From Bacteroidota bacterium (GTDB lineage: Bacteria > Bacteroidota > Bacteroidia > JABDFU01): a stretch of 64,000 bases of DNA. The notes beneath the pieces are model-generated. The model was not told the DNA's origin, ran no database searches, and was given only the letters and a program-made list of their open reading frames with translations. The first letter of the stretch is position 1, and each line of letters begins with the position of its first letter. Location: assembly GCA_013286385.1 (NCBI GenBank), contig JABDFU010000001.1, forward strand, positions 39,730 through 103,729, given 5' to 3'. Both the position numbers and the translations under genes were made by a program. Of this stretch, positions 21,421-34,028 are shown one piece after another.

Positions 21421-22818
21421 ATGCTATTTAATTCTTTTCACTTCTTTTTGTTTTTTCCCATTGTTACTTTTTTCTATTTTCTTTTTCCACACAAATTCAG
21501 ATGGTCTTGGTTGCTTGTTGCGAGTTGTTATTTTTATATGGTTTTCAAGCCCATCTATATTCTGATTCTGTTTTTTACCATTGGGATTGATTACATAGCT
21601 GGTATTCAGATTGAAAAAAGGAAGGGAAAAGGGAAAAAGCATTTTCTCATAGCAAGCTTAATTGCCAACATTGGGGTATTGTTTGTGTTCAAATACTTTA
21701 ATTTTTTCAACAATACTATTTCTTCAATTCTCAGTTTCTTTCACCACACGAATAATTTCAAGAGCCTCGAATTGCTTCTTCCGATCGGTTTGTCTTTTCA
21801 TACCTTTCAGGCCATGAGCTATACGATTGAAGTATATAGGGGACATCAGAAAGCCGAACGGCATTTTGGCATTTACGCACTTTACGTTATGTTTTACCCC
21901 CAATTGGTTGCAGGGCCAATCGAGCGGCCTCAAAACATTTTGCACCAGATACATGAGGTTCATTTTCCCGATTATGTTAAAATTGCGGGCGGATTGAGGC
22001 TCATGCTTTGGGGATTTTTAAAAAAAATGGTTATTGCCGATCATTTGGGGGAATACGTTGATAAAATGTATGCAAATCCTGGTCATTTCCATGGATTTCC
22101 CACACTACTTGCTGTATTGTTTTTTTCCATTCAGATTTATTGTGATTTTTCAGGTTATTCAGACATCGCTATTGGTGCGGCCCGAACAATGGGCTTCAGC
22201 TTGATGAGGAATTTTAATATGCCCTATTTTTCAAAATCCATTCAGGAATTTTGGAGCAGATGGCACATTTCCTTATCCAGTTGGTTTCGGGATTATTTAT
22301 ACATTCCTTTGGGTGGTAGCCGTGTCGCTAAGAGCAGACTGTATTTAAATTTGATGATTGTTTTTTTAATAAGCGGATTATGGCATGGCGCAAATTGGAC
22401 CTTTGTTGTATGGGGTGCGCTGCATGGTTTATTTATGATTCTTTCACTGTCAGGTAAACGTTTTCTTCCAAAATCAACAACGATACCTGTTTTTCTTTTA
22501 GTGACATTTGCCTGGATTTTTTTCAGGGCTGTAGATTTTAATCAGGCCTGGTTGGTATTAGTGAATTGTTTTATAGGATATTCGGTTATACACCCCGGAT
22601 TAACCACAGAATTAGTAAACAAACTTAATTTTTCTGTTTGCATTGCGGGTGCACTAGCACTCTTTCTGATCGAATACCTTCAGCTAAACTATACTATATA
22701 CAAACATATTCTTAATCTGAAAACGATTCCACGTTTTGGGTTATACATTCTATTACTCTATATTATTGCTGTGTTTGGGGTATTTAACAATGAAAAATTT
22801 ATTTATTTTCAATTTTGA
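21421..22818 (+). CDS. MBOAT-family membrane O-acyltransferase (AlgI/DltB-like)
   Basis: 'FWSRWHISLSSWFRDYLYIPLGGSR' and 'SGLWHGANW' with the conserved His. Polytopic. Confidence 0.9.
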   Translation: MLFNSFHFFLFFPIVTFFYFLFPHKFRWSWLLVASCYFYMVFKPIYILILFFTIGIDYIAGIQIEKRKGKGKKHFLIASLIANIGVLFVFKYFNFFNNTISSILSFFHHTNNFKSLELLLPIGLSFHTFQAMSYTIEVYRGHQKAERHFGIYALYVMFYPQLVAGPIERPQNILHQIHEVHFPDYVKIAGGLRLMLWGFLKKMVIADHLGEYVDKMYANPGHFHGFPTLLAVLFFSIQIYCDFSGYSDIAIGAARTMGFSLMRNFNMPYFSKSIQEFWSRWHISLSSWFRDYLYIPLGGSRVAKSRLYLNLMIVFLISGLWHGANWTFVVWGALHGLFMILSLSGKRFLPKSTTIPVFLLVTFAWIFFRAVDFNQAWLVLVNCFIGYSVIHPGLTTELVNKLNFSVCIAGALALFLIEYLQLNYTIYKHILNLKTIPRFGLYILLLYIIAVFGVFNNEKFIYFQF

Positions 22819-23747
22819 AAAAAACTTTCATTTTTAAGTTTGTTTGCATTCTCGCAACCTTTGTTTTGTTGTTTCAGCTGAGCTTTGGGTTCCTGCTTCC
22901 TTTGTTACTTGTGCATTCAGGAGATTCAACTATGCAAAGATGGTATAACTTTTTTCGCCATCCAGTTGATGCTGAACTGGTTATCCTGGGAAGCTCCCGC
23001 GTTCACAGACATTTTGATCCATCTGTAATTGAAACCAAGACCGGAATGAAAACAGAAGACATCGCAACGGGCGGAGCTCTGTTCAATTTTCTAGAAGCCC
23101 TTTACAAAGATTATTTGAAATTGAATAAGTCGCCAAAGGTTTTTATTTTTGGTTTGGATCTGAGTGGACTGTACAATTCTGATTTGGTGCCCAATCCTGA
23201 ATTTTTTTTTCAGGGAATGTTACCTTCTTCTTCGATTTCTCAGCTCCCTGCTTTTCAGTTGGTAAATACTCCAAGGTCTTTTGGATATTTCTATTACAAG
23301 GAATTCTATTTCAATGCCATTGTCAACCCGGAAAAGAATACATTTTACAAAGGATTTGAAGCGTGTGATTTGAAGTGGGGAGAAGTAAAAGACCCCGGCT
23401 CTGGGGAGGTTCTTGAAAATTTCAGTTTTGGCATCGACCCCATTTTGATTGACAGAATTATGAAATTCATTTCGAAACAGGCCGAAAATGGGAGTCAGTC
23501 TTTCGCCGTAATTGCTCCCGAGTTCAACTCGGTTTGGAAATTTGAAAGCAATAGGAATGAAGCCGTTGAAGAAGTCTATTCGATTGCAAAAAAATACAAG
23601 GTCAGAATAATTAATTTTTCTGACACTTCTTACAAAGTAAATTTTGACAAAAATTACTTTTACAATACCCAGCACCTTAACGCAAAAGGAGCTACACTAT
23701 TTAGCAAGGATTTTTGCGATTCCCTGGCGAAATATGTGAAAAGGTAG
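22815..23747 (+). CDS. Hypothetical exported/anchored protein, probable MBOAT accessory (DltD/AlgX-like role)
   Basis: TTG start in a TTGA overlap with the MBOAT stop, and an N-terminal hydrophobic anchor 'FVCILATFVLLFQLSFGFLL'. The role is inferred from position; 'ILGSSRVHRHFDP' is only loosely DltD-like. Confidence 0.35.
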   Translation: MKKTFIFKFVCILATFVLLFQLSFGFLLPLLLVHSGDSTMQRWYNFFRHPVDAELVILGSSRVHRHFDPSVIETKTGMKTEDIATGGALFNFLEALYKDYLKLNKSPKVFIFGLDLSGLYNSDLVPNPEFFFQGMLPSSSISQLPAFQLVNTPRSFGYFYYKEFYFNAIVNPEKNTFYKGFEACDLKWGEVKDPGSGEVLENFSFGIDPILIDRIMKFISKQAENGSQSFAVIAPEFNSVWKFESNRNEAVEEVYSIAKKYKVRIINFSDTSYKVNFDKNYFYNTQHLNAKGATLFSKDFCDSLAKYVKR

Positions 23748-23838: not shown

Positions 23839-25575
23839 TTGCCTTATCCGAAAACCAAATACCCCAAAACCAATGATCTGGTAAGCCAATGCCGGTTATT
23901 TTTTACCTCCGTACTGTCATTCGTTTTTTTTGCAGTATTCCTGCTTTTTGCAAGCGCCGTTTCCTTTGCCCAGAAAAAAAGCTACGCCGGCCAGGGCGCC
24001 GTTTCTGAAATTGTCATGGCCTCCCCGGCAGAGATGGTTGGCCATTTCGATATGTTTTTCCGTTCAAAGGTCGCTGCAGAAGACAGCGACCGGCATACCT
24101 ACTGGTACAAAATCGTATTCAGCAAGGAATGCTCTTTTGATTTTACTTTGTTTCCGCTTTTCGAAAGCGACCGCTACGGATTCGATGTATTCAAAGTCGA
24201 AAACGACGCAAACTTTTGTCAGGCCCGGGTAAATCAAACAATAAAACCGGTTAAAAACATGGAGATCAAAATGTCCTATCACGACAATGATCAAACCGAA
24301 ACCTTCCGTTCAAATCTGGTCCAAACCCGCAAAGTTCCTGTCAAAGCAGGCGAGACCGTCTACCTGGTTGTTAAAAGCCTGAAAGGGCAGGACCACGGTC
24401 ACATCATTGGCCTTAATACCTGTGATTACGGTTATGTTCTGGAAGTCGATAAAGCGATTCCGAAATCTGACTCATCCCAATCAACGTCAATCCAAACGGC
24501 AGTGACAGTGCGTGCTGAATTAAGCGATGAAGAAGCTCTTGCATCCATCGGAAGTAAACTCTGTCCTCCGGATGGCAAACCGGTACAACTGGGTACGCTT
24601 AATTTCAATTCAAAAATTGAAGTCAGCAATTTACTTTACGCTAAAGGCGAAGTTAAAGGGGCCTCTGCAAAAAAAATCACGAAGCAGGCGCCTCTGCCAC
24701 TAAAAACAAAATCCTGCCTGCCGCAGGCATTGGCTTCATCTTCGTTAAAGGCTCAAAACACTAGTAGCTCCGCAATTGTGAAAACTCCTGCGGTAGTGTC
24801 GGCCTCTGTTTCGCAGGCTGCACCCGCAACTCCCGCTGTCCCGACCACCCCGAAGCCCGATATCTGGCTGAAAGAGTTGCAACCAACAGCCGCAACCACA
24901 AAATCAAAACTTATTCCCGTCAGGTGTCTGGTGACGGATGCTGTAAAAGCCAGCCCGATAAGCGAGCAGATAACCATTAAAGACGAACTCACCGGGGCCT
25001 GTATACCCGTGCAAAAAACAGCCACCGGTGAGTTCGAATTCGCAGTCGAAAAAGGCCGCATATACAAAGTAGACTGTGCGGTGATGGGATACAAAACCTT
25101 TGACCACCCGGTTAATATTTACAAAACTTTAAGAGGAGAGGAAAATCAGTTTGAAATCAAGCTGCAGCCTTTGGTGGCCGGAGAAAATTTCATACTTAAA
25201 AACATTTATTTTAATCCAAACACCCCGGTAATCAAGGACGAATCAACTGAAGAACTCGCGAAGCTCTTTACGTTTATGAAAAATAACCCTGAAGCGATTA
25301 TTTCAATCGAGGGTCATACCAATGGTCACAACCATATTGGTCGTGAAAGCTGGAGAGAAAAGAAAGGCGGAGACTGGGCCTTTCACGGAAGCGTCAAAAA
25401 GCTTTCAAGGCACAGAGCGTATCAGGTTATGAGCTACCTGGTCAAAAACGGCATCGCTTCCTCCAGGGTTAAAACCAAGGGTTGGGGAGATGCGCATGAA
25501 CTGTATCCCAACGCCCGTACAATGGAACAACGGTTAAAAAACATGAGGGTAGAGGTGGTCATACTTAAAAATTGA
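23839..25575 (+). CDS. OmpA-family protein with N-terminal unknown domain, Pro/Thr/Ala linker and C-terminal OmpA-like peptidoglycan-binding domain
   Basis: Signal-like 'FFAVFLLFASAVSFAQ', then 'FNPNTPVIKDESTEELAKLFTFMKNNPEAIISIEGHTNG...HRAYQVMSYLVKNGI'. There is no in-frame ATG before the signal peptide, so the TTG start is uncertain. Confidence 0.75.
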   Translation: MPYPKTKYPKTNDLVSQCRLFFTSVLSFVFFAVFLLFASAVSFAQKKSYAGQGAVSEIVMASPAEMVGHFDMFFRSKVAAEDSDRHTYWYKIVFSKECSFDFTLFPLFESDRYGFDVFKVENDANFCQARVNQTIKPVKNMEIKMSYHDNDQTETFRSNLVQTRKVPVKAGETVYLVVKSLKGQDHGHIIGLNTCDYGYVLEVDKAIPKSDSSQSTSIQTAVTVRAELSDEEALASIGSKLCPPDGKPVQLGTLNFNSKIEVSNLLYAKGEVKGASAKKITKQAPLPLKTKSCLPQALASSSLKAQNTSSSAIVKTPAVVSASVSQAAPATPAVPTTPKPDIWLKELQPTAATTKSKLIPVRCLVTDAVKASPISEQITIKDELTGACIPVQKTATGEFEFAVEKGRIYKVDCAVMGYKTFDHPVNIYKTLRGEENQFEIKLQPLVAGENFILKNIYFNPNTPVIKDESTEELAKLFTFMKNNPEAIISIEGHTNGHNHIGRESWREKKGGDWAFHGSVKKLSRHRAYQVMSYLVKNGIASSRVKTKGWGDAHELYPNARTMEQRLKNMRVEVVILKN

Positions 25576-25668: not shown

Positions 25669-26775
25669 ATGACAAAAAAAACTGAAAACAGTCCCAAAGG
25701 AAGTGAATCAGCATTCAATTCGTTGCGCTTACTTCCTCCTGAAAAGTACAAGATTGAAACGGTAAAGGTGCTACGGCAATTGGTTAAGTCTTCCGTAGCT
25801 CTTGCAGAGCTTAAGGGGCTGGCGAAAATTCTGCCTAATCCCGACATCTTACTAAATGCGGTCATTTTAAAAGAAGCCCGTGCCAGTTCTGAAATAGAGA
25901 ATGTAATTACTACCCAGGATAAGCTTTACCAGGCCATGTCTGCCAAAGGAGGACTGGTGGATAGCGCAACAAAGGAGGTATTGCGCTATCGTGAAGCCAT
26001 GCTGTATGGTTTTAAGCTGATCCGGACGAAGGGATTTTTAACTACCAATGGTATTATTGAAATTCAGAGAATATTGGAAGAAAACAATGCAGGTATCCCG
26101 AAATTACCAGGCACGGCACTTCGCAATGCAGCAACAGGTAAAGTTATTTATACCCCACCGGATAACATTGATACGATTAACCGCTTGATGAAAAATCTGG
26201 AAGTATACCTCAACACGGAGGATGATAGTTCTCCTTTGGTAAAAATGGCCGTTCAGCATTACCAGTTTGAAAGTATTCATCCTTTTTATGACGGAAACGG
26301 TCGTACGGGCAGAATTATCAATGTGCTGTACTTGATTTTACACAAGTTACTGGATAACCCTGTACTTTATTTAAGCGATTACATTATTGCCAATAAGGCA
26401 GACTATTACCGTTTATTGCAGGAAGTGCGTTCAAAAGAAAATTGGGAGGGATGGATACTCTACATCCTGAAAGGAGTTGAGCAAACTGCGAATGAAACCA
26501 TTGTTCAGGTAAATGAGATCAGTAGTTTGTTTTCACAGACTCAGAACCTGGTAAAAAAGAAAGCTCCGAATGCGTATAGCAAAGAATTAATAGAGTTACT
26601 ATTTGAGCACCCCTACAGTAAAAGCGAATATTTGACTACTCGTTTGGGAATTTCCCGGATTACTGCTTCCAAATACCTGAAAGAACTGGAGGCAATCAGA
26701 ATTCTTCAATCAAGGCGGGTGTGGAAGGAAACTTTGTATATTAATACAAACTTGTTTGAATTGCTTAAAAAGTAG
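25669..26775 (+). CDS. Fic-family protein (AMPylase-type motif) with N-terminal inhibitory motif and C-terminal winged-helix
   Basis: Fic motif 'HPFYDGNGRTGR' at 26278-26313 fits HxFx[DE]GN[GK]R. 'SSEIEN' at 25885-25902 fits [ST]xxxE[GN]. C-terminal 'LGISRITASKYLKELEAIRIL' is HTH-like. Confidence 0.9.
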   Translation: MTKKTENSPKGSESAFNSLRLLPPEKYKIETVKVLRQLVKSSVALAELKGLAKILPNPDILLNAVILKEARASSEIENVITTQDKLYQAMSAKGGLVDSATKEVLRYREAMLYGFKLIRTKGFLTTNGIIEIQRILEENNAGIPKLPGTALRNAATGKVIYTPPDNIDTINRLMKNLEVYLNTEDDSSPLVKMAVQHYQFESIHPFYDGNGRTGRIINVLYLILHKLLDNPVLYLSDYIIANKADYYRLLQEVRSKENWEGWILYILKGVEQTANETIVQVNEISSLFSQTQNLVKKKAPNAYSKELIELLFEHPYSKSEYLTTRLGISRITASKYLKELEAIRILQSRRVWKETLYINTNLFELLKK

Positions 26776-26847: not shown

Positions 26848-27861
26848 ATGATAAAACGCATACTGTTTCTGTTGATATTCAGCTCTTCGTTCATTTTTGC
26901 CCAGCAAAAAGCAGATTCAACAGCTCCTGCTGAGCCAGCGGTAGTTCCACCTACCATCAATAATAGCATTACTACTCCAAAATCAGACACATCGAAAACC
27001 CCGGCCGCTGCAAAGCCCGATGCAGCCGCTGCAAAACCTGAACAGGAAAAACCCTCAAATATTAAAACGGGCCCCGGTACCAACGGCAAAGACACCATTA
27101 CCGGTGCGGGTGTTGCAATGGCGCCTTCTTCTATGTTCTTCCGTACGAAACCTGGCAAATCAGAAACCATCTACCTTACCATCACCAACGACCAGAAAAA
27201 ATCGGAGCGCTTTAAAATTTCCTTCCAGGACTATGTCATGGACAACCATGGAAAATCTTCCGGTGTCCCTTTTGGTCAGATTGCGCCATATGGATTAGGT
27301 AAATTTGTTATTGCCTCCCCAAGTCTGGTTGAATTGAAGCCCGGGGAAAAAAAGAAAGTAGCTGTAACGGTATCTATGCCCGAAACCGACGAAGCTTACC
27401 GGTCCTGTTGGACCGAAATGATAGTTGACCGTGTTTCTGAGCGCAAACAGCTTGTTCCTGAAAAAGGAGGCGACAAGACCATGCAAATGGGCGTTATCCC
27501 AACCTACGGATTCGCCATTCACCTTTACCAGAATCCGCCCAACGTCCGGATTAATAAAGTAGAAATAACCAGGTTCAACTTTACCTACAACGATACTGCA
27601 AAGTTTATTGCCCTGGTGGTCAAAAATGCCGGAGATGGCATGGGTTTCTGTAAGTCCTACGTAGAAATTAACAACTTAAAAACGGGAAAAATCGAAAAAG
27701 ACCTGCTTAAGCAATTTGTCGTTTTCCCCGGAATGGAGCGCCAGTTTGATCTTACTATTCCCGGGAAACTGCTCAAGGGAAAGTATTCAGTATTAATGGT
27801 GCTTGATTTCGGAAGCAAAGACCAGCTCGAAACGGCTGAACAGGAGATTACGGTCAATTAG
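26848..27861 (+). CDS. Secreted two-domain beta-rich protein, candidate periplasmic chaperone (PapD-like organisation, hypothesis only)
   Basis: Signal peptide 'MIKRILFLLIFSSSFIFA/QQ' is followed by an ~80-aa Pro/Ala/Thr/Lys linker and two ~100-130-aa beta-strand-patterned modules ('FFRTKPGKSETIYLTITN..', 'LVELKPGEKKKVAVTV', 'FIALVVKNAGDG..'). ATG 26848 is preferred to the track's TTG at 26776. Confidence 0.35.
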   Translation: MIKRILFLLIFSSSFIFAQQKADSTAPAEPAVVPPTINNSITTPKSDTSKTPAAAKPDAAAAKPEQEKPSNIKTGPGTNGKDTITGAGVAMAPSSMFFRTKPGKSETIYLTITNDQKKSERFKISFQDYVMDNHGKSSGVPFGQIAPYGLGKFVIASPSLVELKPGEKKKVAVTVSMPETDEAYRSCWTEMIVDRVSERKQLVPEKGGDKTMQMGVIPTYGFAIHLYQNPPNVRINKVEITRFNFTYNDTAKFIALVVKNAGDGMGFCKSYVEINNLKTGKIEKDLLKQFVVFPGMERQFDLTIPGKLLKGKYSVLMVLDFGSKDQLETAEQEITVN

Positions 27862-27934: not shown

Positions 27935-27965
27935 TTTGTTGAATTTATAATTTTTGCTACATTTG
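27935..27965 (+). promoter_or_regulatory. Bacteroidota sigma-A-type promoter: TTTG (-33) N19 TACATTTG (-7)
   Basis: TTTG at 27935-27938, a 19-nt spacer, then TACATTTG at 27958-27965, a perfect TAnnTTTG. It lies 36 nt upstream of ATG 28002. Confidence 0.5.
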
Positions 27966-28001: not shown

Positions 28002-28952
28002 ATGAAAAAAATCTTCAAATTATCCGCGCTGATTGCCGCGATGGTTCTTGGAAAAGTATCATTTGCGCAATTGCAGGACGAACAGGATGTCACTATGACA
28101 ATGGATTTGCAGCCAATTTTGCAGCTTTCCATGGAGGGTCCCGATCAGATTGATTTTACTTTTGACGAGATCAATAAGTACTATACCGGGGTTGTGAAGA
28201 CAGGCGCGAACATTCTTAAAGTAAGCGCTTCGGTATCTTTTGACCTTTGGGCAGTTGGTGTTTCTACCGGATCGTTGAACAGTGTTACAACCGGTTTACT
28301 TTGGGACAATCCAGTACAATACGGTACCGGAATTACCGGAGTAGCTTTGAATACCATTCCGCTTACCGCGCTTGAATTGCACCAGTTCCCTGGCAATCCT
28401 GCCATTGCAACCTGTGCAGGTTCTACTACTGCCAACTCTGATTACAGTCAGCAATTTGCTCCTTTCAATTTCGCTACCAACACTATTCTTGGTGGCGCTG
28501 TAATTGCTTCCGGAAACAATGAAGTGTTTTGTTCTAACCCATCGGGCGCATACTTGCCCCCACTTAGTACAAACGGGCTCACTACTACTGAAAAGTATAT
28601 TGCCGGCGCAAGCAGCACAACTGCCGGTTGCCAGGTAGCTGCAGGTAGCTGGTTATTCGGGTCAATTGCAAACACTACAGCTCTTCCAAACACTGACGTT
28701 TCTTCTGTTGCAAATGCAAATGCTCAGCAAACTGCAGGCGGATACTATTTTGTAATGGATTACCGGATTCTTCCGGGTCTTCCTGCAAAATTCCCTTCGA
28801 CTTTGCCAGCTAACGATGCCAATAAAGCGGCTCCTTCTGTTACTGAAGCAACTCTTCAATGTGGTAGTTTAAATGTTGCTGGTAACGGCTTTTTCGCTGC
28901 TCCCGGTGTTTACACCATGTTCCTGAAATACATTTTGGCTGAAGACCAATAG
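28002..28952 (+). CDS. Secreted Gly/Ala/Thr/Ser/Asn-rich protein, candidate major fibre subunit (single copy of the 'ILAEDQ' domain)
   Basis: Signal peptide 'MKKIFKLSALIAAMVLGKVSFA/QL'. Paralogous to the C-terminal half of 29013..30398. Ends in 'PGVYTMFLKYILAEDQ'. Has its own promoter and terminator. Confidence 0.4.
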   Translation: MKKIFKLSALIAAMVLGKVSFAQLQDEQDVTMTMDLQPILQLSMEGPDQIDFTFDEINKYYTGVVKTGANILKVSASVSFDLWAVGVSTGSLNSVTTGLLWDNPVQYGTGITGVALNTIPLTALELHQFPGNPAIATCAGSTTANSDYSQQFAPFNFATNTILGGAVIASGNNEVFCSNPSGAYLPPLSTNGLTTTEKYIAGASSTTAGCQVAAGSWLFGSIANTTALPNTDVSSVANANAQQTAGGYYFVMDYRILPGLPAKFPSTLPANDANKAAPSVTEATLQCGSLNVAGNGFFAAPGVYTMFLKYILAEDQ

Positions 28953-28973
28953 AATAATATACGCTCAATCATT

Positions 28974-29004
28974 AAAAGGCTGCCTCATCTGGCAGCCTTT
29001 TTTT
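28974..29004 (+). terminator. Rho-independent terminator/attenuator hairpin
   Basis: AAAA, GGCTGCC (28978-84), loop TCATCT, GGCAGCC (28991-97), then TTTTTTT (28998-29004). It starts 22 nt after the stop of 28002..28952. Confidence 0.65.
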
Positions 29005-29012
29005 ATATATAT

Positions 29013-30398
29013 TTGTATGTGGAGACATGTATTCGAAAATGCCTGTGGGTTGTTATTGGTTTATTTCTGCTAAAATCAACTTCCTTTGCAGGTGTATGTC
29101 CTGGTCAGTCTTTCGTTGGCAATCAGCTTCAAACAGCAACTCTTGAGTTTACCAGTTTCGGCGACCTCATCTCCGGTAAGGCGTTTAGCGCATTTGTTAT
29201 TACGGTAACTGATCCCACGGTTGGTTGTCCCTGGGATTTATTCATTTCTGACGCGGCTCCTTTTGCACCTACTGTAACTCAGCTTATAAGCTATAGCGGT
29301 CAGGGAGTAGTTTTGCCAATTTCGGATGTAAATATAAGGGCTACAACCTCCTGCGACGGCCCTAATGAGTTATATGGTGGTCTTGTACGTACTACACCAA
29401 ACATCAATGAGAATTTCCCTGCCCTTGCAGCATCCCCGTTTGCTGTTGTGGGTGCCGGTTCACACAATGTGATTGGTACCGACGGGGCTCACGATGGTGT
29501 ATTGGCAAACAATACGGGCTTTTGTGCCGGCAATATTAATGATTTTGGTAACGGCTCAAGCAATCCCCAGAACAATGTCATACAATTTGATATACAGGTG
29601 ACGCCCGGTGTAAATACAATCATACAACCCGGTCTTTATCAATTGAGTGTAACAGTTGTGCTGGAAGATGATGCTACTGGAGCGCAATTACAGCACCAGA
29701 CCTTTACTTTTGAAATCGACATCGAGCCCATTATACAGCTAACGATGAATACCAATTCCCAGATTGATTTTGAATTCACCAGCCTTACGAATTATTCCGG
29801 AGGAATCACCCAATATGGTGCTACGATTCTTCAGGTCAGTTCGAGTGTGAACTGGGATTTAATGGCCGTAGGCACTTCAACACTAAATGAATCAGGAGCC
29901 CCGGGTACAAATCCCTATTGGGATAATACAATTAAATATGCGGCCACCGGTACAACCAACATTCCGCTTGACATTCTCGAACTCTTTCAGTCTCCCGCCA
30001 ATCCTTTTAATGCGGTGCCGGGTGCCGATTACAGTGCGGGCTTTACCAGCCCTCCTTCCGGCAAAAACAACCTGATTACAGCCTATGGTTCGGGTGTGGC
30101 TCTTACGGCTGTGGCACCTTATTCGCTGGCACCTGGGGCGGCAACAAGAACCATTGCCGGTGACTGGACTACGGTGGGGGCCCCCCTTCATGCGGGAATA
30201 CCCGGAAGTTACCTTTCTATTAATAAGGCAGGAGCAGGCGCCTGGGTAAATGCCAACTACCGTTACGTTATCAGTTACAGGCTTACACCAGGATTGCCGG
30301 TACTTTTTTCGTATTCCAAAATATATACCATGCCCACATTTGCAACACCGGGATCCTATACGATGCAGGTAAAATACATTTTGGCAGAAGATCAGTAA
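29013..30398 (+). CDS. Secreted protein made of two tandem copies of the subunit domain (candidate minor/tip subunit)
   Basis: Signal-like 'VVIGLFLLKSTSFA/GV'. The internal domain ends in 'PGLYQLSVTVVLEDD' and the C-terminus in 'PGSYTMQVKYILAEDQ'. 'IEPIIQLTMNTNSQIDFEFT...ILQVSSSVNWDLMAVG' aligns with 'LQPILQLSMEGPDQIDFTFD...ILKVSASVSFDLWAVG' of 28002..28952. The start is non-ATG (TTG 29013 or GTG 29019). Confidence 0.4.
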   Translation: MYVETCIRKCLWVVIGLFLLKSTSFAGVCPGQSFVGNQLQTATLEFTSFGDLISGKAFSAFVITVTDPTVGCPWDLFISDAAPFAPTVTQLISYSGQGVVLPISDVNIRATTSCDGPNELYGGLVRTTPNINENFPALAASPFAVVGAGSHNVIGTDGAHDGVLANNTGFCAGNINDFGNGSSNPQNNVIQFDIQVTPGVNTIIQPGLYQLSVTVVLEDDATGAQLQHQTFTFEIDIEPIIQLTMNTNSQIDFEFTSLTNYSGGITQYGATILQVSSSVNWDLMAVGTSTLNESGAPGTNPYWDNTIKYAATGTTNIPLDILELFQSPANPFNAVPGADYSAGFTSPPSGKNNLITAYGSGVALTAVAPYSLAPGAATRTIAGDWTTVGAPLHAGIPGSYLSINKAGAGAWVNANYRYVISYRLTPGLPVLFSYSKIYTMPTFATPGSYTMQVKYILAEDQ

Positions 30399-30413: not shown

Positions 30414-33400
30414 ATGCAGAAGACACTATCCTTTTGTTTTTTCATACTGATCGCATCGATTCTTTCTGCCCAGAATTTACCTTCAGACACCGTCAAAAAC
30501 CCAAAGCCAGTGGGAAAACTTACTGCCCAATTCGACAGTGTCGAAATTCTGATTCAGGATGGGGAGGTTTTCTCAAAAAACATGCGGGTCGTAAGCAATG
30601 TAGATGTTCCCTTTTCATTCAAAGTAGATATCACGTTTCCTGCAGAATGGAAGTCCCTTGTTAATCCGAACAAAAAATACACAATAGATCCCCACGATAC
30701 CCTATACGTGCCCTTGCATTTAGTACCGCTTGGAAAGATCAAAGGGAATACCAAATACATGATTACTGCCTTTTTGTTTGATACCATAGGTTCTCCGATT
30801 ACTTCAGCCTATGTTAACGCGGCCCGGCCGAAGTTTACCAAATGGTCGTTAAATCTGGGTCCCTACAAAAAAATTTATTTTAAGAATGATTCCAGTACGG
30901 CACGTTTTACCATCAATGTCGGAAACGAAGGAACCGAGACTCAGGACCTTTACCTGAGCATGGGAAACCTTAGAAAAGATGTTATCATACTCGACACAGC
31001 CGGAAGAATTATAAAAAAGCCGTCTTACACTTTTAGTCTGAAGCAGTTTTCTGATACTACTTTTCATTTCGGGGTAAAGATTTTTTCGGCATCACGCAAC
31101 ATGAAAAGGGTTGATTCAGATGGCTACAGGCCTGGTGGCCCTGGCGAATCAAGATCCTATGCGATTTTTGTAAAAACGATGGAAACCAGTTTGTTCGGTT
31201 CTCTTGCCAGGCAAATAAGTGACCGGCTGTCATTTGTAAAATTGCCCAATGAAACCAGAATATCAGATTACGGCATGTATTCCCTGCCCATGACCATGGA
31301 TCTTACCTTCAGCAATTTGTTTTCTGATGAATTATTGACCAACCTGCATCTGTATGGGGCAACCAAACTGGATGACGGAGCGAATATTTTTTACAACGCA
31401 CAGTTTATGACCGCATTTAATACGCTTGGCAGTTCTGTTTTCCCTTCTCCTTTTCTTACGCTGGGCTATTCAAACTATCGCATGTCCATAATGATTGGCG
31501 ATGTAGGAGGCGGAGCGGGTGGTATTGGGTTCGGGGGCAAAGGAATTACCGGCCAATACATGCTCAGTAAGCGGCACAGGGTCGGGGCTTTCTTTGTGAT
31601 GAATCCCGGTTTTTTAAATAGAATCACATATATAGGATTCGGAGCCAATTACAACTATACCGGAGAAAAATTTACCGGAGGGGTTTCGTATGCACATTTG
31701 GAAAATATGGGTAATTTAAATGGAGCCGTCAATTCAGATTACCTGAGTTTTCAGGGATCTTACACAATAGCTTCAACCCAGGGTGTCTCTCTTTCTGTAA
31801 TACTTGTCAATAATGTTCAGGGTTCGATAGCAAATCAGGGTTATAATGTAAGTGCGGGCTATCATGGAGGCTTTATCAGGCAAAAACTCCAGGTGAATCT
31901 TTCGGGTTCTTTTTTTTCGAGCTATTATTCGTTTTACGATCAGGGAAACCGGGGGATGGTAAATCTGAACAGCAGCTATCGATTTAAAAAGAGCTGGTAC
32001 CTGCGCATGAACAATTCCTTCAACCAGTACGCCGCAACCGAGCCGGTACCGACCCTGATTTTTTATTCCCAGCAGTCCCTTAATAATCAGATATCTGTAT
32101 CCCGTTCGATGGATATTCACTCTTCTTTTACAGCAGGCTTTTTCTTTAATGTATTCAGAGACGACTACTACGACTATACCTCCGTGTCAAGAGGTATTAA
32201 TCTGGGATTGAATTATTCCCTTCCCGAAAGCTACCTGATCTTCAGTACAAATACCATGATGGGTTTCACACAGATTACAAGCGCCCCCGACTATCCGAAC
32301 AATTTTTTCATCAACCTGTTCACCTTGCTTAAATACCGTGTGTTCTCGCTTAATGTCAGATACAGCAACGGAAATCCTTCGGGCATCAATATCAACACGA
32401 CCAGTTCGAATCTCTATTCAGAAGACCTTGCCATTACCCTGAACCACCAATACCAGTTCAGAAACAGGCGTTTCATCTTAAATAATTCCATTACCTATAA
32501 TTTAATGCCCGAGATTCAACGCAACAGTTTTGGCATTACGCCCGAATTAAATTATTATTCGCTGAACGGATGGAGAATACGACTTACCGCAGGATATTAT
32601 TTTTCAGAATCGGCGCCATTGAATTACACTTCGTTTCAGTCGCTTGTCCCTTCTTCGTCAGACAATTCTTCAGCTTCGACTGCCCCGATCGTTTCAACAA
32701 GTTATTTGCTTATGCTGGGAGTTCACAAAGATTTCGGTATTCCCCTGCCTTTTATCAAAAGAAGATATCCAAGTCTTAATTTCATTGCCTTTGTGGACAT
32801 CAATGGTAATGGTAAATTCGACTATGACGAAACCCGTCTCGAAAACGTCGTGATCAACGTAAATGGTTGGGAAGTGATGACCAATTCGAAAGGAGAAGCT
32901 CAGCTTAAGAATATGCCAGAGGGTGATTACGTCTGGCAGGCTTTCTGTCTGGACGATCTGAAAGGGTTTTTCCCGAATATTTCAGATAAAATAAAGGTTT
33001 TTGCTCCGCCTGAAGATTCTGTTCGCTCGAGATTTTTTGATCCCGGAAAGGTAGTTGCGGTGCCCTTTGTAAAGGGAATTCGTCTTTTCGGAAAAGTGTA
33101 TGCTGACCGTGAAAAGCTGTCTCCCGATGCATTAACCGCCCTAGACCTTTCAGGGATACGTATTTCTGTTAATTGTCAGGGCAAAAAATCGGCAACTCTT
33201 ACCGAAAGTGACGGATCTTTCTCTTTTTACCTGCCTTATGGTTCGTACATATTAACGATGGATGAAAAGGTACTTGGTGATCAATTCAGGGTATTGCAGA
33301 ACGATATTGATCTCACTCTGAACAAAGGGGTTGAAAATATGTTTGTTTCGTTTTACATAGTCGAAAACCAGCGAAAAATTATCCGTAAGCACTTCGATGC

Positions 33401-34028
33401 AAACGGCAATCTGATCAGCGAGGAATCAGAGGCTGTGAAACCGGCAGGTTCAGGAGGGGCCACAGGCTCTTCGGGTACGTCAAACATTCCGGGCGGAAAC
33501 AATGCTGCATTTTCTGGTATTGCCGCAGGAAATATACCTGGCGGAGGCTCTGGTGCAGCAGGGCCTGGTTTAGTCACGGCCAATGGTGCGGGAACTGGCT
33601 CAGGTTCAGCCAATGGTAGCGGATCCGGAGCGTCAGCCGGCGCCGGAAAAGACCTCATTGCCGAAGCCAACGCTGCGGCTAACAAAAAGCCACGCCCGAA
33701 AAACGATGTATCGAAAGATGCATTTTTGGCCGACAAAACAGATGCCACAACTACAAAAGGCCTTATTTATACCGTTCAATTGGGGGCATTGGTAAAGCCA
33801 CTCGATCCTGTTATATTCAAAGGGCTTAAAAATCTTATGTACGAACGAATCGACAACCAGATGGTACGCATTACCGCAGGCAATATGGGCACTGAAGCTG
33901 AGGCGCTTGCCGAACGCGATAACCTGTCCAGGGTTGGCTTCCCCGGAGCCTTTGTTTCGGTATACTACGACGGTAAAAACATTTCACTGTCTGAGGCCCG
34001 TCAGATCAAAAAGAACAGCACTCATTAA
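30414..34028 (+). CDS. 1204-aa outer-membrane beta-barrel-like protein with flanking Ig-like domains, Gly/Ala/Ser linker and C-terminal SPOR-like domain (candidate usher/export pore)
   Basis: Signal peptide 'MQKTLSFCFFILIASILSA/QN'. The central ~500 aa has alternating aromatic/Gly beta-strand patterning ('YIGFGANYNYTGEKFTGGVSYAHL', 'WRIRLTAGYYFSE'). 'SDGSFSFYLPYGSYILTM' is CarboxypepD_reg-like. The linker is at 33438-33653, and the SPOR-like 'IYTVQLGAL...MVRITAGNMGTEAEALAERDNLSRVGFPGAFVSVY' at ~33759-33990. Confidence 0.45.
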   Translation: MQKTLSFCFFILIASILSAQNLPSDTVKNPKPVGKLTAQFDSVEILIQDGEVFSKNMRVVSNVDVPFSFKVDITFPAEWKSLVNPNKKYTIDPHDTLYVPLHLVPLGKIKGNTKYMITAFLFDTIGSPITSAYVNAARPKFTKWSLNLGPYKKIYFKNDSSTARFTINVGNEGTETQDLYLSMGNLRKDVIILDTAGRIIKKPSYTFSLKQFSDTTFHFGVKIFSASRNMKRVDSDGYRPGGPGESRSYAIFVKTMETSLFGSLARQISDRLSFVKLPNETRISDYGMYSLPMTMDLTFSNLFSDELLTNLHLYGATKLDDGANIFYNAQFMTAFNTLGSSVFPSPFLTLGYSNYRMSIMIGDVGGGAGGIGFGGKGITGQYMLSKRHRVGAFFVMNPGFLNRITYIGFGANYNYTGEKFTGGVSYAHLENMGNLNGAVNSDYLSFQGSYTIASTQGVSLSVILVNNVQGSIANQGYNVSAGYHGGFIRQKLQVNLSGSFFSSYYSFYDQGNRGMVNLNSSYRFKKSWYLRMNNSFNQYAATEPVPTLIFYSQQSLNNQISVSRSMDIHSSFTAGFFFNVFRDDYYDYTSVSRGINLGLNYSLPESYLIFSTNTMMGFTQITSAPDYPNNFFINLFTLLKYRVFSLNVRYSNGNPSGININTTSSNLYSEDLAITLNHQYQFRNRRFILNNSITYNLMPEIQRNSFGITPELNYYSLNGWRIRLTAGYYFSESAPLNYTSFQSLVPSSSDNSSASTAPIVSTSYLLMLGVHKDFGIPLPFIKRRYPSLNFIAFVDINGNGKFDYDETRLENVVINVNGWEVMTNSKGEAQLKNMPEGDYVWQAFCLDDLKGFFPNISDKIKVFAPPEDSVRSRFFDPGKVVAVPFVKGIRLFGKVYADREKLSPDALTALDLSGIRISVNCQGKKSATLTESDGSFSFYLPYGSYILTMDEKVLGDQFRVLQNDIDLTLNKGVENMFVSFYIVENQRKIIRKHFDANGNLISEESEAVKPAGSGGATGSSGTSNIPGGNNAAFSGIAAGNIPGGGSGAAGPGLVTANGAGTGSGSANGSGSGASAGAGKDLIAEANAAANKKPRPKNDVSKDAFLADKTDATTTKGLIYTVQLGALVKPLDPVIFKGLKNLMYERIDNQMVRITAGNMGTEAEALAERDNLSRVGFPGAFVSVYYDGKNISLSEARQIKKNSTH

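What the first reader, a model, noticed from the sequence alone, without database searches (positions are those of the whole stretch)
28002..30398. Subunit paralogy: one-copy and two-copy proteins, each domain ending in PG-x-Y-x(6,7)-L-x-ED
The 316-aa protein and the C-terminal half of the 461-aa protein align over their whole length. Examples are 'LQPILQLSMEGPDQIDFTFDEINKYYTGVVKTGANILKVSASVSFDLWAVG' against 'IEPIIQLTMNTNSQIDFEFTSLTNYSGGITQYGATILQVSSSVNWDLMAVG', and 'YYFVMDYRILPGLPAKF' against 'YRYVISYRLTPGLPVLF'. Both end in the same octapeptide: 'PGVYTMFLKYILAEDQ*' (28902-28952) and 'PGSYTMQVKYILAEDQ*' (30348-30398). The N-terminal half of the 461-aa protein ends in the related 'PGLYQLSVTVVLEDD' (29628-29672) and has 'CPWDLFIS' where the others have 'WDLMAVG'/'FDLWAVG', so it appears to be a third, more diverged copy of the domain. 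A strictly conserved terminal beta-strand plus acidic tail is the kind of element used for donor-strand exchange, chaperone capture or pore targeting. It is only loosely reminiscent of the Gly...Tyr C-terminal strand of classical pilins, and that resemblance is not evidence of homology.
Basis: seen in the sequence. Interest (0 to 1): 0.65.

Follow-up and report, generated by a model that had tools for sequence, protein, structure and literature searches.

The report
Bacteroidota strand-exchange pilus gene cassette
These two genes encode the building block and a fused end-piece of a tubular surface fibre whose structure was solved in 2024 from pond water without its genes or host being known. 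The window shows the conserved four-gene kit that probably builds that fibre.

Summary
The 316-aa protein and the C-terminal half of the 461-aa protein are paralogues (BLASTP E=7e-30). The N-terminal half of the 461-aa protein is a third, diverged copy (profile-profile E=3.6e-13). The C-terminal motif is conserved in 86 subunits and 74 related proteins from about 85 other loci.

The family is not unknown. Its profile matches PDB 9IKJ/9IKK (E=6e-46), the TLP-1a/b pond-water fibrils. These are 8-nm tubules held together by donor-strand exchange.

In that structure the donor is the N-terminal strand.

New here:
- The N-domain of the 461-aa protein lacks a donor strand. In most loci its equivalent is a separate ~200-250-aa 'cap' gene. 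In this window it is fused to a whole pilin, whose donor strand follows the cap's last strand after five residues. This looks like in-cis complementation and suggests a tip piece.
- A four-gene cassette is conserved in uncultured Bacteroidota. It consists of a WxLIP/PapD-like two-domain periplasmic protein, the subunit, the cap, and a ~1000-1200-aa barrel-like protein.

The chaperone and usher roles are inferred. Homology to the usher family and to the WxL domain was not detected.

The parts
26848..27861 (+). Two-domain periplasmic Ig-like protein ('c361', 337 aa from the ATG). It has a signal peptide and no C-terminal membrane helix. It is the candidate donor-strand-complementing chaperone.
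   Evidence: 29 of 31 family members hit Pfam WxLIP_PGBD/DUF916 (best E=1.3e-11). There are weaker hits to MSP, PapD_N, ASH and Cep192, and 2 members hit WxLIP_HBD. hhalign against three plasmid WxLIPs gives probability 95.6%, E=1.1e-8, over 210 columns covering both domains. PDB EfmWxLIP1 matches at E=0.005. The gene is linked to the subunit gene in 79 of 85 loci.
28002..28952 (+). Major fibre subunit (316 aa), a member of the TLP-1 family.
   Evidence: The profile of alignment A1 matches 9IKK/9IKJ at E=6e-46 and 1e-44 over the full length. BLASTP against TLP-1b gives 30% identity, E=4e-30. There are 577 homologues, none annotated and none with a Pfam domain.
28002..28067 (+). Signal peptide of the subunit (residues 1-22, predicted cleavage SFA|Q).
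   Evidence: TLP-1b chain residue 2 aligns to precursor residue 24, so the mature fibre subunit starts at Q23. Q23 is invariant in alignment A1.
28068..28127 (+). N-terminal donor strand region of the subunit (residues 23-42, QLQDEQDVTMTMDLQPILQL).
   Evidence: It is homologous to beta1 of TLP-1, which inserts into protomer n from protomer n+4. 9 of its 20 positions are invariant in A1, against 53 of 316 overall.
28902..28949 (+). C-terminal strand of the subunit (PGVYTMFLKYILAEDQ). It is the acceptor-cleft edge strand (beta7), not the donor.
   Evidence: It aligns to the last strand of TLP-1 (...YPGVYTLNVKFVMVE). The paper assigns beta7 to the cleft and to lateral contacts. The motif is conserved in 86 of 86 subunits.
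28974..29001 (+). Terminator-like hairpin (11-bp stem, then a T-run) between the major subunit gene and the next gene.
   Evidence: It is the top terminator-like site in the 23.5-34.7 kb scan and is visible in the sequence. A role in raising the ratio of major to minor subunit is an inference.
29013..30398 (+). Two-domain protein (461 aa): a cap domain fused to a complete pilin domain.
   Evidence: hmmsearch gives Ndom 175 bits for residues ~33-221 and Cdom 315 bits for residues ~224-461. About 14 two-domain cluster representatives exist among 1.84 billion representative proteins (50%-identity clusters). The gene occupies the position of the single-domain cap gene of other loci.
29094..29672 (+). 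Cap (N-terminal) domain, residues ~28-220. It is a third copy of the fold, lacks a donor strand, and is Cys-rich.
   Evidence: hhalign against the C-domain gives E=3.6e-13, with the alignment starting only at beta2. hhalign of the 71-sequence single-domain cap family against this domain gives probability 99.4%, E=2.2e-21.
29628..29672 (+). Last strand of the cap domain (PGLYQLSVTVVLEDD).
   Evidence: Verified by translation. AF2 predicts a strand at 207-219. It aligns to the terminal strand of the other copies.
29685..29741 (+). Internal donor-strand homologue (residues 225-243, QLQHQTFTFEIDIEPIIQL). It is predicted to complement the cap domain in cis.
   Evidence: It aligns to the mature N-terminus of the subunit, including the relic 'AQLQ' of the signal-peptidase site. 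AF2 predicts a strand at 225-237, five residues after strand 207-219. The cis pairing itself is inferred.
29685..30395 (+). Pilin (C-terminal) domain of the two-domain protein. Its own acceptor cleft is open.
   Evidence: BLASTP E=7e-30 against the 316-aa protein. hhalign E=1.2e-63. BLASTP against TLP-1b gives 32% identity, E=5e-24.
30414..34028 (+). Large secreted protein ('u1204'), the candidate outer-membrane assembly pore. Layout: N-terminal beta-rich region (~res 20-290); barrel-like region (~res 290-785, 31281-32768); two prealbumin/CarboxypepD_reg-like domains (~res 790-1000); and a lineage-specific low-complexity tail with a weak SPOR-like end.
   Evidence: It is conserved next to the subunit in 78 of 85 loci. 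CarboxypepD_reg, SpaA and SdrD_B hits occur in 16-20 of 31 members. The central region is 50-62% G/Y/F/N/S/T and 4-14% charged, and there is no hydrophobic helix after the signal peptide. There is no Pfam Usher hit and no PDB sequence hit. The pore role is inferred.
23839..25575 (+). OmpA-domain protein (578 aa), a possible peptidoglycan anchor linked to the cassette only in this clade.
   Evidence: The Pfam OmpA domain hits at E=6.5e-13. Homologues lie directly upstream of c361 in L006, L007 and L014 only.

Best explanation
The two genes encode subunits of a TLP-1-type surface fibre of an uncultured Bacteroidota bacterium.

The 316-aa protein is the major subunit. After signal-peptide removal at A22|Q23, its N-terminal strand (residues 23-42) is donated to the cleft of a neighbouring subunit. 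The conserved C-terminal PG-x-Y...ILAEDQ strand is the wall of its own acceptor cleft.

The 461-aa protein is a natural fusion of two parts:
- a donor-strand-less 'cap' domain, which is a separate ~200-250-aa gene in most related loci;
- a complete pilin.

The pilin's donor strand follows the cap's last strand after a five-residue turn. It most likely fills the cap's cleft in cis, which leaves the pilin domain's cleft open for the first major subunit. A subunit that can accept a strand but cannot donate one can only sit at one end of a strand-exchange polymer. By analogy with FimH, CsuE and CfaE, this is the distal tip, the part assembled first.

The upstream WxLIP/PapD-like two-domain periplasmic protein probably keeps subunits assembly-competent by inserting a strand into the cleft. 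The downstream ~1200-aa barrel-like protein probably serves as the outer-membrane assembly and secretion platform.

Shown: family membership, three-fold paralogy, absence of a donor strand in the cap, conserved synteny, and WxLIP homology of the neighbour. Inferred: cis complementation, tip location, and the chaperone and usher roles.
For: Family membership:
- The profile matches 9IKJ/9IKK over the full length at E=6e-46.
- The mature N-terminus coincides with the first residue of the fibre model.
- The published structure shows N-terminal beta1 of protomer n+4 inserting between beta2 and beta7 of protomer n.
- The two ends of the subunit are its most conserved parts.

The cap:
- The N-domain matches the C-domain at E=3.6e-13, but only from beta2 onward.
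- In 74 ORFs (about 70 loci) the gene between the subunit gene and u1204 encodes a single-domain protein. It matches the subunit HMM only from about position 20, and it matches the window's N-domain at E=2.2e-21.
- The fused form occupies the same position in the loci that carry it. Eight fusion ORFs were recovered, in 8 loci plus the window.
- The fusion junction ...VVLEDD-ATG-AQLQHQTFTFEIDIEP keeps the whole mature pilin N-terminus.
- AF2 predicts strands 207-219 and 225-237 back to back.
- After TLP-1, the best Foldseek hits of the model are the two-domain tip adhesin CsuE, the engineered in-cis complemented CfaE-CfaB and CfaB-CfaB fusions, and LpfD.

The cassette:
- 75 of 85 loci carry c361, the subunit and u1204 on one strand. 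67 of them are in the order c361-subunit-u1204.

The neighbour:
- c361 is homologous to WxLIP.
- WxLIP is predicted to insert a strand in parallel into the incomplete WxL sandwich (PMC10599100).
- A WxL-WxLIP co-structure is deposited as 9I25.
Against: - No structure or contact map of the complexes could be computed. The AF2 model of the 316-aa protein was poor (pLDDT 46) and that of the 461-aa protein only moderate (pLDDT 59). Cis complementation therefore rests on secondary structure, linker length and analogy.
- u1204 shows no sequence similarity to ushers or to any solved structure. Its barrel is inferred from composition only.
- c361 reaches PapD_N only weakly (4 of 31 members, best E=1e-4). 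Its Gram-positive homologues are thought to be stable surface partners rather than transient chaperones.
- TLP-1 fibrils are four-start (n+4 to n). A single usher extruding one protofilament does not obviously explain that geometry.
- Some strand-complemented filaments, such as TasA and archaeal cannulae, polymerise without a chaperone.
Confidence: 0.6

Rival explanations
1. One reading: the conserved C-terminal strand with its acidic tail is itself the exchanged (donated) strand, as in Bacteroidota type V pili, or is a pore-targeting signal.
For: The strand is strictly terminal and highly conserved in all three domain types. Type V pili of the same phylum do exchange C-terminal strands (own knowledge).
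Against: - In the solved homologue the donor is the N-terminal beta1, and beta7 remains in its own domain.
- There is no lipoprotein cysteine after the signal peptide, and no FimA/Mfa Pfam or NCBIfam hit.
- The tail ends in E-D-Q rather than in an aromatic beta-signal, and no T9SS C-terminal domain was found.
- In the cap domain the same strand is internal and is followed directly by a donor-strand homologue.
Confidence: 0.05
2. The fibre self-assembles without a chaperone after secretion, as TasA and archaeal cannulae do. In this view c361 is a stable surface or periplasmic adaptor, like WxLIP in Gram-positive bacteria. u1204 is an anchor or a generic secretion pore, not an usher that catalyses strand exchange.
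For: - c361 is homologous to WxLIP, which is proposed to be a permanent partner of WxL.
- u1204 has no detectable usher homology.
- The four-start geometry of TLP-1 is hard to reconcile with a single usher.
- The fibrils contain only one protein.
Against: - c361 lacks the membrane helix of WxLIP and has only a signal peptide, so a soluble periplasmic location is likely.
- Incomplete Ig-fold subunits crossing a diderm periplasm generally need their groove capped (established for chaperone-usher systems; own knowledge).
- The linkage of c361 and u1204 to the subunit is near universal.
Confidence: 0.2
3. The 461-aa protein is not a tip. It is an ordinary minor shaft subunit, a cell-proximal anchor or terminator, or a tandem-duplicated pilin with no special position.
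For: Tip location was not observed. The TLP-1 reconstructions show only one protomer type. In classical systems terminators are also specialised paralogues (own knowledge).
Against: - The N-domain and its 74 single-domain relatives lack the donor strand but keep the cleft strands. They can therefore cap only the acceptor end.
- A terminator of the PapH type has the opposite defect (own knowledge).
- The fold search retrieves two-domain tip adhesins and in-cis complemented fusions.
Confidence: 0.15

Closest known systems
TLP-1a/TLP-1b fibrils from Tsinghua Lotus Pond water (PDB 9IKJ, 9IKK; CryoSeek, PNAS 2024, PMC11494351)
   Same: There is full-length sequence homology (profile E=6e-46; 30% identity to the 316-aa protein and 32% to the C-domain). 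The mature N-terminus, the N-terminal donor strand and the C-terminal beta7 strand are the same. The best AFDB match reported by the authors was a Flavobacteriales protein, which fits the Bacteroidota-only distribution found here.
   Different: The window's subunit is about 60 residues longer and only 30% identical. The closest fetched loci reach 44%. The published work did not identify the organism, the genes, any minor subunit or the assembly machinery. The cap, the cap-pilin fusion and the four-gene cassette are not described there.
Chaperone-usher pili (Fim/Pap, archaic Csu, CFA/I), with their two-domain tip adhesins (FimH, CsuE, CfaE, LpfD) and the engineered in-cis donor-strand-complemented fusions (3F83, 3F84)
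   Same: - The subunits have an incomplete Ig-like fold completed by a neighbour's N-terminal strand.
- A conserved C-terminal strand lines the groove.
- The operon has a two-Ig-domain periplasmic protein, a major subunit followed by a hairpin, a specialised end subunit, and a large barrel-like protein with N- and C-terminal beta-sandwich domains.
- Foldseek links the 461-aa model to CsuE, CfaE-CfaB, CfaB-CfaB and LpfD.
   Different: - No Pfam Fimbrial or Usher hit was found, and PapD_N hits are only weak.
- The donor comes from protomer n+4, giving a four-start tubule.
- The tip domain is a paralogue of the pilin fold complemented in cis by the fused pilin's own donor strand. It is not an unrelated lectin domain.
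- The candidate usher is about 1000-1200 aa and has prealbumin-like C-terminal domains.
WxL clusters of Bacillota (small WxL, large WxL, and WxLIP = DUF916+DUF3324; PMC10599100; PDB 9I25, 9I1Y)
   Same: - The neighbour c361 is homologous to WxLIP over both domains.
- The cluster logic matches: one single-domain subunit, plus one larger protein carrying the shared domain at its C-terminus.
- WxLIP is predicted to complete the WxL sandwich by inserting a strand.
- The subunits here also carry W-x-L (CPWDL, NWDL, C.W.L) and a terminal G.Y....[YFW].L.E tail.
   Different: - Homology of the subunits to the WxL domain was not detected. There is no PF13731 hit, and hhalign gives E=0.004-0.5 with probability below 10%.
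- c361 lacks the C-terminal membrane helix.
- The host is diderm, and a barrel-like protein is part of the cassette.
- WxL proteins are not known to polymerise.
Type V pili of Bacteroidota (FimA/Mfa1)
   Same: They occur in the same phylum and are strand-exchange polymers of beta-sandwich subunits (own knowledge).
   Different: Type V pilins are lipoproteins. They are matured by an arginine-specific protease and donate a C-terminal strand. Here the signal peptides are of the signal-peptidase-I type, the donor is N-terminal, and no type V family hit was found.
TasA fibres, archaeal bundling pili and cannulae (chaperone-free donor-strand complementation)
   Same: They are polymers linked by N-terminal strand donation. 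The TLP-1 authors compared their fibrils with the Tas fibre.
   Different: Those systems have no dedicated two-domain periplasmic partner and no barrel-like protein. Their donor comes from protomer n+1. No sequence similarity to them was detected.

Membership tests
TLP-1 fibril subunit family (PDB 9IKJ/9IKK) | Full-length sequence homology to the TLP-1a/b protomer | tested here: met
   hmmsearch of alignment A1 gives E=6e-46 and 1e-44, covering residues 24-299 of the profile against 2-236 of the chains. BLASTP of TLP-1b against the 316-aa protein gives E=4e-30, and against the 461-aa C-domain E=5e-24.
TLP-1 fibril subunit family (PDB 9IKJ/9IKK) | N-terminal donor strand directly after the signal-peptide cleavage site | tested here: met
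   Chain residue 2 aligns to precursor residue 24. QLQDEQDVTMTMDLQPILQL is homologous to LISEQNVTVTMDLQPVLQL. In the 461-aa protein the same segment is internal, at residues 225-243.
TLP-1 fibril subunit family (PDB 9IKJ/9IKK) | Assembly into an 8-nm four-start tubule by n+4 to n strand exchange | not testable with these tools
   This needs cryo-EM of fibres, or multimer prediction.
Classical chaperone-usher pathway | Usher of the PF00577 family | tested here: not met
   No Usher hit at E<=0.01 in any of 31 u1204 family members. No usher or other PDB chain is matched by the A4 profile.
Classical chaperone-usher pathway | PapD-like periplasmic chaperone (PF00345/PF02753) | tested here: inconclusive
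   PapD_N is hit by 4 of 31 c361 members, best E=1.1e-4, below family-level confidence. MSP, ASH and Cep192 domains are also hit; I recall these as belonging to the PapD-like group. The strongest match is WxLIP_PGBD.
Classical chaperone-usher pathway | Fimbrial subunit family (for example PF00419 or SCPU) | tested here: not met
   No Pfam or NCBIfam family is hit by the 316-aa or 461-aa proteins, or by the 32 A1 members even at E<=10. Only fold-level similarity was found.
WxL cluster (Bacillota) | Adjacent WxLIP (DUF916 + DUF3324) protein | tested here: met
   29 of 31 members hit PF06030, best E=1.3e-11, and 2 hit PF11797. hhalign gives probability 95.6%, E=1.1e-8, across both domains.
WxL cluster (Bacillota) | Subunits carry the WxL domain (PF13731) | tested here: not met
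   No PF13731 hit. Profile-profile comparison with 16- and 46-sequence WxL alignments gives E=0.0036 to 0.5 and probability <=9%. The equivalent motifs align, but not significantly.
WxL cluster (Bacillota) | WxLIP ends in a transmembrane helix | tested here: not met
   c361 ends ...DQLETAEQEITVN with no hydrophobic segment. The alignment to WxLIP stops before the helix of WxLIP.
Type V pili (FimA/Mfa1) | Lipoprotein precursor and a type V pilin family domain | tested here: not met
   The signal peptides end in A|Q with no lipobox cysteine. There are no FimA/Mfa family hits in Pfam or NCBIfam.
T9SS cargo | C-terminal sorting domain (type A or type B CTD) | tested here: not met
   No CTD model in NCBIfam or Pfam is hit. 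The C-terminus is the structural strand beta7.

The most novel reading that the evidence does not exclude
The Bacteroidota TLP-1 cassettes and the WxL clusters of Gram-positive bacteria may be two branches of one ancient strand-complementation surface system. In that reading the WxL domain is a diverged homologue of the TLP-1 pilin or cap fold, and WxLIP and c361 are its dedicated strand-inserting partners. The diderm version would add a new, non-PF00577 class of usher. It would use a donor-strand-less cap, fused in cis to a pilin in this window, to nucleate a four-start tubule.
Probability: 0.3. Interest if true: 0.8.

Novelty: new variant of a known kind. Interest (0 to 1): 0.62.

Why it matters
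TLP-1a/b are high-resolution structures without a biology. Their authors could identify neither the organism, the gene nor the assembly route.

This window and about 85 related loci change that:
- They place the family in uncultured aquatic Bacteroidota. Relatives were detected in 158 matching stretches across a collection of 185,579 species genomes, and all 80 loci kept for inspection were MAGs.
- They give a compact four-gene cassette that can be synthesised and expressed.
- They predict a tip or nucleator subunit and a chaperone-like partner.

How a four-start strand-exchange tubule is built therefore becomes directly testable. The work also points to a possible new usher class. It further suggests an unexpected evolutionary bridge to the WxL/WxLIP surface complexes of enterococci, listeriae and lactobacilli, which are linked to adhesion and virulence.

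Tried and rejected
- AF2 of the 316-aa protein with 32 homologues gave pLDDT 46. It was too poor for a fold search and was not used.
- Homology of the subunit or cap to the WxL domain was tested three times with increasingly broad WxL profiles. It was never significant and is kept only as a lead.
- u1204 against solved structures and Pfam gave no usher, LptD, BamA or other barrel match.
- The N-terminal region of u1204 against c361 gave only E=0.004, probability 8.6%, so no claim is made.
- An amphipathic-alternation score did not separate the putative barrel from its flanks. Only composition and charge did.
- Type V pilus, T9SS cargo and an OMP beta-signal were considered for the C-terminal motif and rejected.
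- No further TLP-like ORF exists elsewhere in the window.
- Literature searches for follow-ups on the genetics of TLP-1, or for a Bacteroidota chaperone-usher of this kind, found nothing in the held library. A paper for PDB 9I25/9I1Y was not found either.
- The sigma-70 promoter scan was at background level (16 sites found against 19 expected).


Full report
**1. The observation**

The + strand carries a run of genes:
- 23839-25575: 578 aa, with an OmpA domain.
- 25669-26775: a Fic protein.
- 26848-27861: 337 aa counted from the ATG.
- 28002-28952: 316 aa.
- 29013-30398: 461 aa.
- 30414-34028: 1204 aa.

BLASTP aligns the 316-aa protein with residues 224-461 of the 461-aa protein at 33% identity, E=7e-30. 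The N-terminal half of the 461-aa protein is not significantly similar by BLASTP (E about 0.03).

I aligned 14 two-domain homologues (A2) and compared the N-domain profile with the C-domain profile. hhalign gave probability 97.9%, E=3.6e-13, over 174 columns. 'CPWDL' aligned to 'NWDL', and the two terminal PG-x-Y strands aligned with each other. The three-copy paralogy is therefore real. Notably, the alignment of the N-domain starts only at the second strand of the fold.

**2. What the family is**

Neither protein hits any Pfam or NCBIfam model. The 316-aa protein has 577 homologues, all unannotated, from Bacteroidota metagenome bins. A profile of 32 of them (A1) matches two PDB sequences over their full length: 9IKK_A (E=6e-46) and 9IKJ_A (E=1e-44).

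These are TLP-1b and TLP-1a, fibrils found by cryo-EM in filtered water of the Tsinghua Lotus Pond (PMC11494351). According to that paper:
- They are 8-nm helical tubules with a 15-Å negatively charged lumen.
[quoted passage not shown] This is donor-strand exchange.
- The authors had no gene, no organism, and no match in their own metagenome or mass spectrometry. [quoted passage not shown]

Later CryoSeek papers and citing papers in the held library add nothing on TLP-1 genetics.

The TLP-1b sequence, reconstructed from the alignment, is 30% identical to the 316-aa protein (E=4e-30). It is 32% identical to the C-domain of the 461-aa protein. The closest fetched loci reach 44%.

The first modelled residue of the fibre corresponds to Q23, directly after the predicted signal-peptidase site SFA|Q.

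**3. What the terminal motif does**

In the solved homologue the C-terminal strand (beta7) is not exchanged. It stays in its own protomer, forms one wall of the acceptor cleft and takes part in lateral contacts. The exchanged element is the N-terminal strand, here residues 23-42 (QLQDEQDVTMTMDLQPILQL).

Both ends are the most conserved parts of the protein:
- 9 of 20 positions of the donor region are invariant.
- 6 of the last 16 positions are invariant.
- Overall, 53 of 316 positions are invariant.

Across the 85 fetched loci, all 86 subunit ORFs end in PGVYTM.V[KQ]Y.L.[EQ][DN]Q-like tails. The motif is the counterpart of the C-terminal F strand of classical pilins.

**4. The third copy is a cap**

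A scan of one genome per species found 158 stretches (in a collection of 185,579 species genomes) that encode relatives. All 80 loci kept for inspection were metagenome-assembled Bacteroidota. A few of them carry obviously wrong bin labels.

In these loci the gene between the subunit gene and the large downstream gene almost always encodes a protein of about 200-250 aa. This protein has the following properties:
- It matches the window's N-domain. hmmsearch gives 22-59 bits over nearly the whole model. hhalign of the 71-sequence family against the N-domain gives probability 99.4%, E=2.2e-21.
- It matches the subunit profile only from about position 20 onward, that is, after the donor strand.
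- It begins right after the signal peptide with Q-(x)-C, carries a C.W.L motif and several conserved cysteines, and ends in [PS]G.YQ[LI].[LIV].[FY].L.E plus 0-3 residues.

The common ancestor of these cassettes therefore had a donor-strand-less paralogue that keeps the cleft strands.

Eight fusion ORFs were recovered in the fetched loci. In those loci and in the window, the same position holds a fusion of this cap with a complete pilin. The junction reads ...VVLEDD-ATG-AQLQHQTFTFEIDIEPIIQL. The cap ends where caps normally end. Four residues later the entire mature pilin begins, including the relic 'AQLQ' of the signal-peptidase site.

The AF2 model of the 461-aa protein has moderate quality (pLDDT 59, with core strands at 77-86). 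It predicts strand 207-219, the cap's last strand, followed five residues later by strand 225-237, the donor-strand homologue. A five-residue turn between two long strands implies a hairpin. This would place the donor strand next to beta7 of the cap, in the position it occupies in trans in the fibre.

Foldseek of this model against the PDB returns, in order:
[quoted passage not shown] - the engineered in-cis donor-strand-complemented fusions CfaB-CfaB and CfaE-CfaB;
- the adhesin LpfD.

I therefore read the 461-aa protein as a natural in-cis complemented cap-pilin fusion. A module that can accept but not donate a strand can occupy only one end of the polymer. By the logic of chaperone-usher pili that end is the distal tip, which is assembled first. 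The cis pairing and the tip position are inferences. I could not inspect coordinates or run multimer predictions.

**5. The cassette**

75 of 85 loci carry c361, the subunit and u1204 on one strand. 67 of them are in the order c361-subunit-(cap)-u1204. The ten incomplete loci are contigs that end close to the genes.

*c361 (window 26848-27861).* It has a signal peptide, a low-complexity linker and two Ig-like domains.
- 29 of 31 family members hit Pfam WxLIP_PGBD (DUF916), best E=1.3e-11.
- There are weaker hits to MSP, PapD_N, ASH and Cep192, and two hits to WxLIP_HBD.
- hhalign against three WxLIPs from Enterococcus and Latilactobacillus plasmids gives probability 95.6%, E=1.1e-8, over 210 columns covering both domains.
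- Unlike WxLIP, it has no C-terminal membrane helix.

WxLIP is the partner of WxL-domain proteins in Gram-positive 'WxL clusters'. These clusters typically hold one small WxL protein, one large protein with a C-terminal WxL domain, and one WxLIP. AlphaFold predicts that a WxLIP hairpin strand inserts in parallel into a gap of the WxL sandwich (PMC10599100). PDB 9I25 contains a WxL protein (chain A) together with EfmWxLIP1 (chain C). A strand-inserting, chaperone-like role for c361 is thus a reasonable inference.

The most conserved block of c361, GVIPTYGFAIHLYQNPPNV, lies at the end of domain 1. This is where the G1 donor strand of PapD-type chaperones lies (own knowledge).

*u1204 (30414-34028).*
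- It has a signal peptide and no further hydrophobic helix.
- It has an N-terminal beta-rich region.
- Its central region of about 495 residues is 50-62% G/Y/F/N/S/T and only 4-14% charged. This is typical of outer-membrane barrels.
- It has two prealbumin/CarboxypepD_reg-like domains.
- In this lineage it carries an extra low-complexity tail with a weak SPOR-like end.

This layout (periplasmic domains, then a barrel, then two beta-sandwich domains) parallels that of ushers. However, no usher homology is detectable by Pfam or against PDB sequences. The pore or usher role is inferred from architecture and linkage only.

*Other features.* A strong terminator-like hairpin (28974-29001) follows the major subunit gene, as is common in fimbrial operons (own knowledge). 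The OmpA-domain gene is linked only in the closest relatives. The Fic gene is an insertion specific to this window.

**6. The WxL lead**

The subunits carry W-x-L motifs and a terminal G.Y....[YFW].L.E tail that resembles the end of WxL domains (...TYTTTIVWNLSEGP). The cluster logic also matches, with a small protein, a large protein carrying the shared C-terminal domain, and a WxLIP.

I tested homology with WxL profiles of 16 and 46 sequences. The best result was E=0.0036 at probability 9%, for the C-terminal hairpin only. All other comparisons gave E=0.05-0.5. The equivalent elements align in the same order but not significantly. Subunit homology is therefore unproven, and I do not file the proteins as WxL-domain proteins.

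**7. Open problem**

TLP-1 is a four-start polymer: four strand-linked protofilaments make one tube. One usher-like pore would extrude only one protofilament. The following all remain open:
- whether u1204 oligomerises;
- whether four caps nucleate the tube;
- whether protofilaments associate after export.

This is the main reason to keep the chaperone-free rival alive.

**8. Verdict**

As proteins, these are new members of a family with a solved structure. As a system, the following are not described in the literature I could search:
- the cap and its in-cis fused form;
- the WxLIP-like partner;
- the non-canonical usher candidate;
- the restriction to uncultured Bacteroidota.

I rate this a new variant of a known kind, with interest 0.62.

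Noticed in passing
window 25669-26775: A Fic/SoFic-type adenylyltransferase gene (NCBIfam E=7e-123) sits between the OmpA-domain gene and c361. In the closest relatives (L006, L007) those two genes are directly adjacent, so Fic looks like a lineage-specific insertion into the cassette.
   Followed up: partly
window 28974-29001: A strong terminator-like hairpin (11-bp stem with 6 GC pairs, then a T-run) lies in the 60-nt gap after the major subunit gene. It may set the ratio of major to minor subunit. A TAcaTTTG motif, which resembles a Bacteroidetes -7 box, lies at about 27958-27965 upstream of the subunit ATG.
   Followed up: partly
window 33414-34025: The large protein carries a G/S/A-rich low-complexity stretch and a C-terminal domain of about 90 aa. 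This extension is present in fewer than 30% of family members. The terminal domain is shared with L005 and hits Pfam SPOR weakly (E=0.028). Together with the OmpA-domain gene, this suggests anchoring to peptidoglycan.
   Followed up: partly
window 34722-37508: A 928-aa protein holds two complete D-Ala-D-Ala ligase modules in tandem (Dala_Dala_lig_N two stretches, Dala_Dala_lig_C three stretches). This is an unusual fusion.
   Followed up: no
window 28065-28070, 26905-26913, 30468-30476; loci L009-L085: All cassette proteins have glutamine directly after the predicted signal-peptidase site (subunit A|Q, invariant; c361 FA|QQ; u1204 SA|QN; cap homologues A|QC). This fits the Bacteroidetes 'Q-rule' of N-terminal pyroglutamate, which I cite from my own knowledge. 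In the subunit that residue is the first residue of the donor strand.
   Followed up: no
L030 7995-9624; L003/L004 11083-11874: Two variants of the cassette were seen. L030 has two tandem subunit genes before the cap gene. L003/L004 have a 263-aa Cys-rich cap that ends in ...AGVYQLTVKYCLRNGP. In five loci the c361 gene lies after the large gene instead of before the subunit gene.
   Followed up: partly
window 1-64000: GC content rises from about 0.41-0.45 to about 0.49-0.50 beyond roughly 34 kb, which is just after the cassette.
   Followed up: no
window 21421-23747: An MBOAT-family O-acyltransferase gene (21421-22818) overlaps by 4 nt with a 310-aa ORF that has no Pfam hit, upstream of the OmpA-domain gene. 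Whether this pair modifies a surface polymer related to the fibre is unknown.
   Followed up: no
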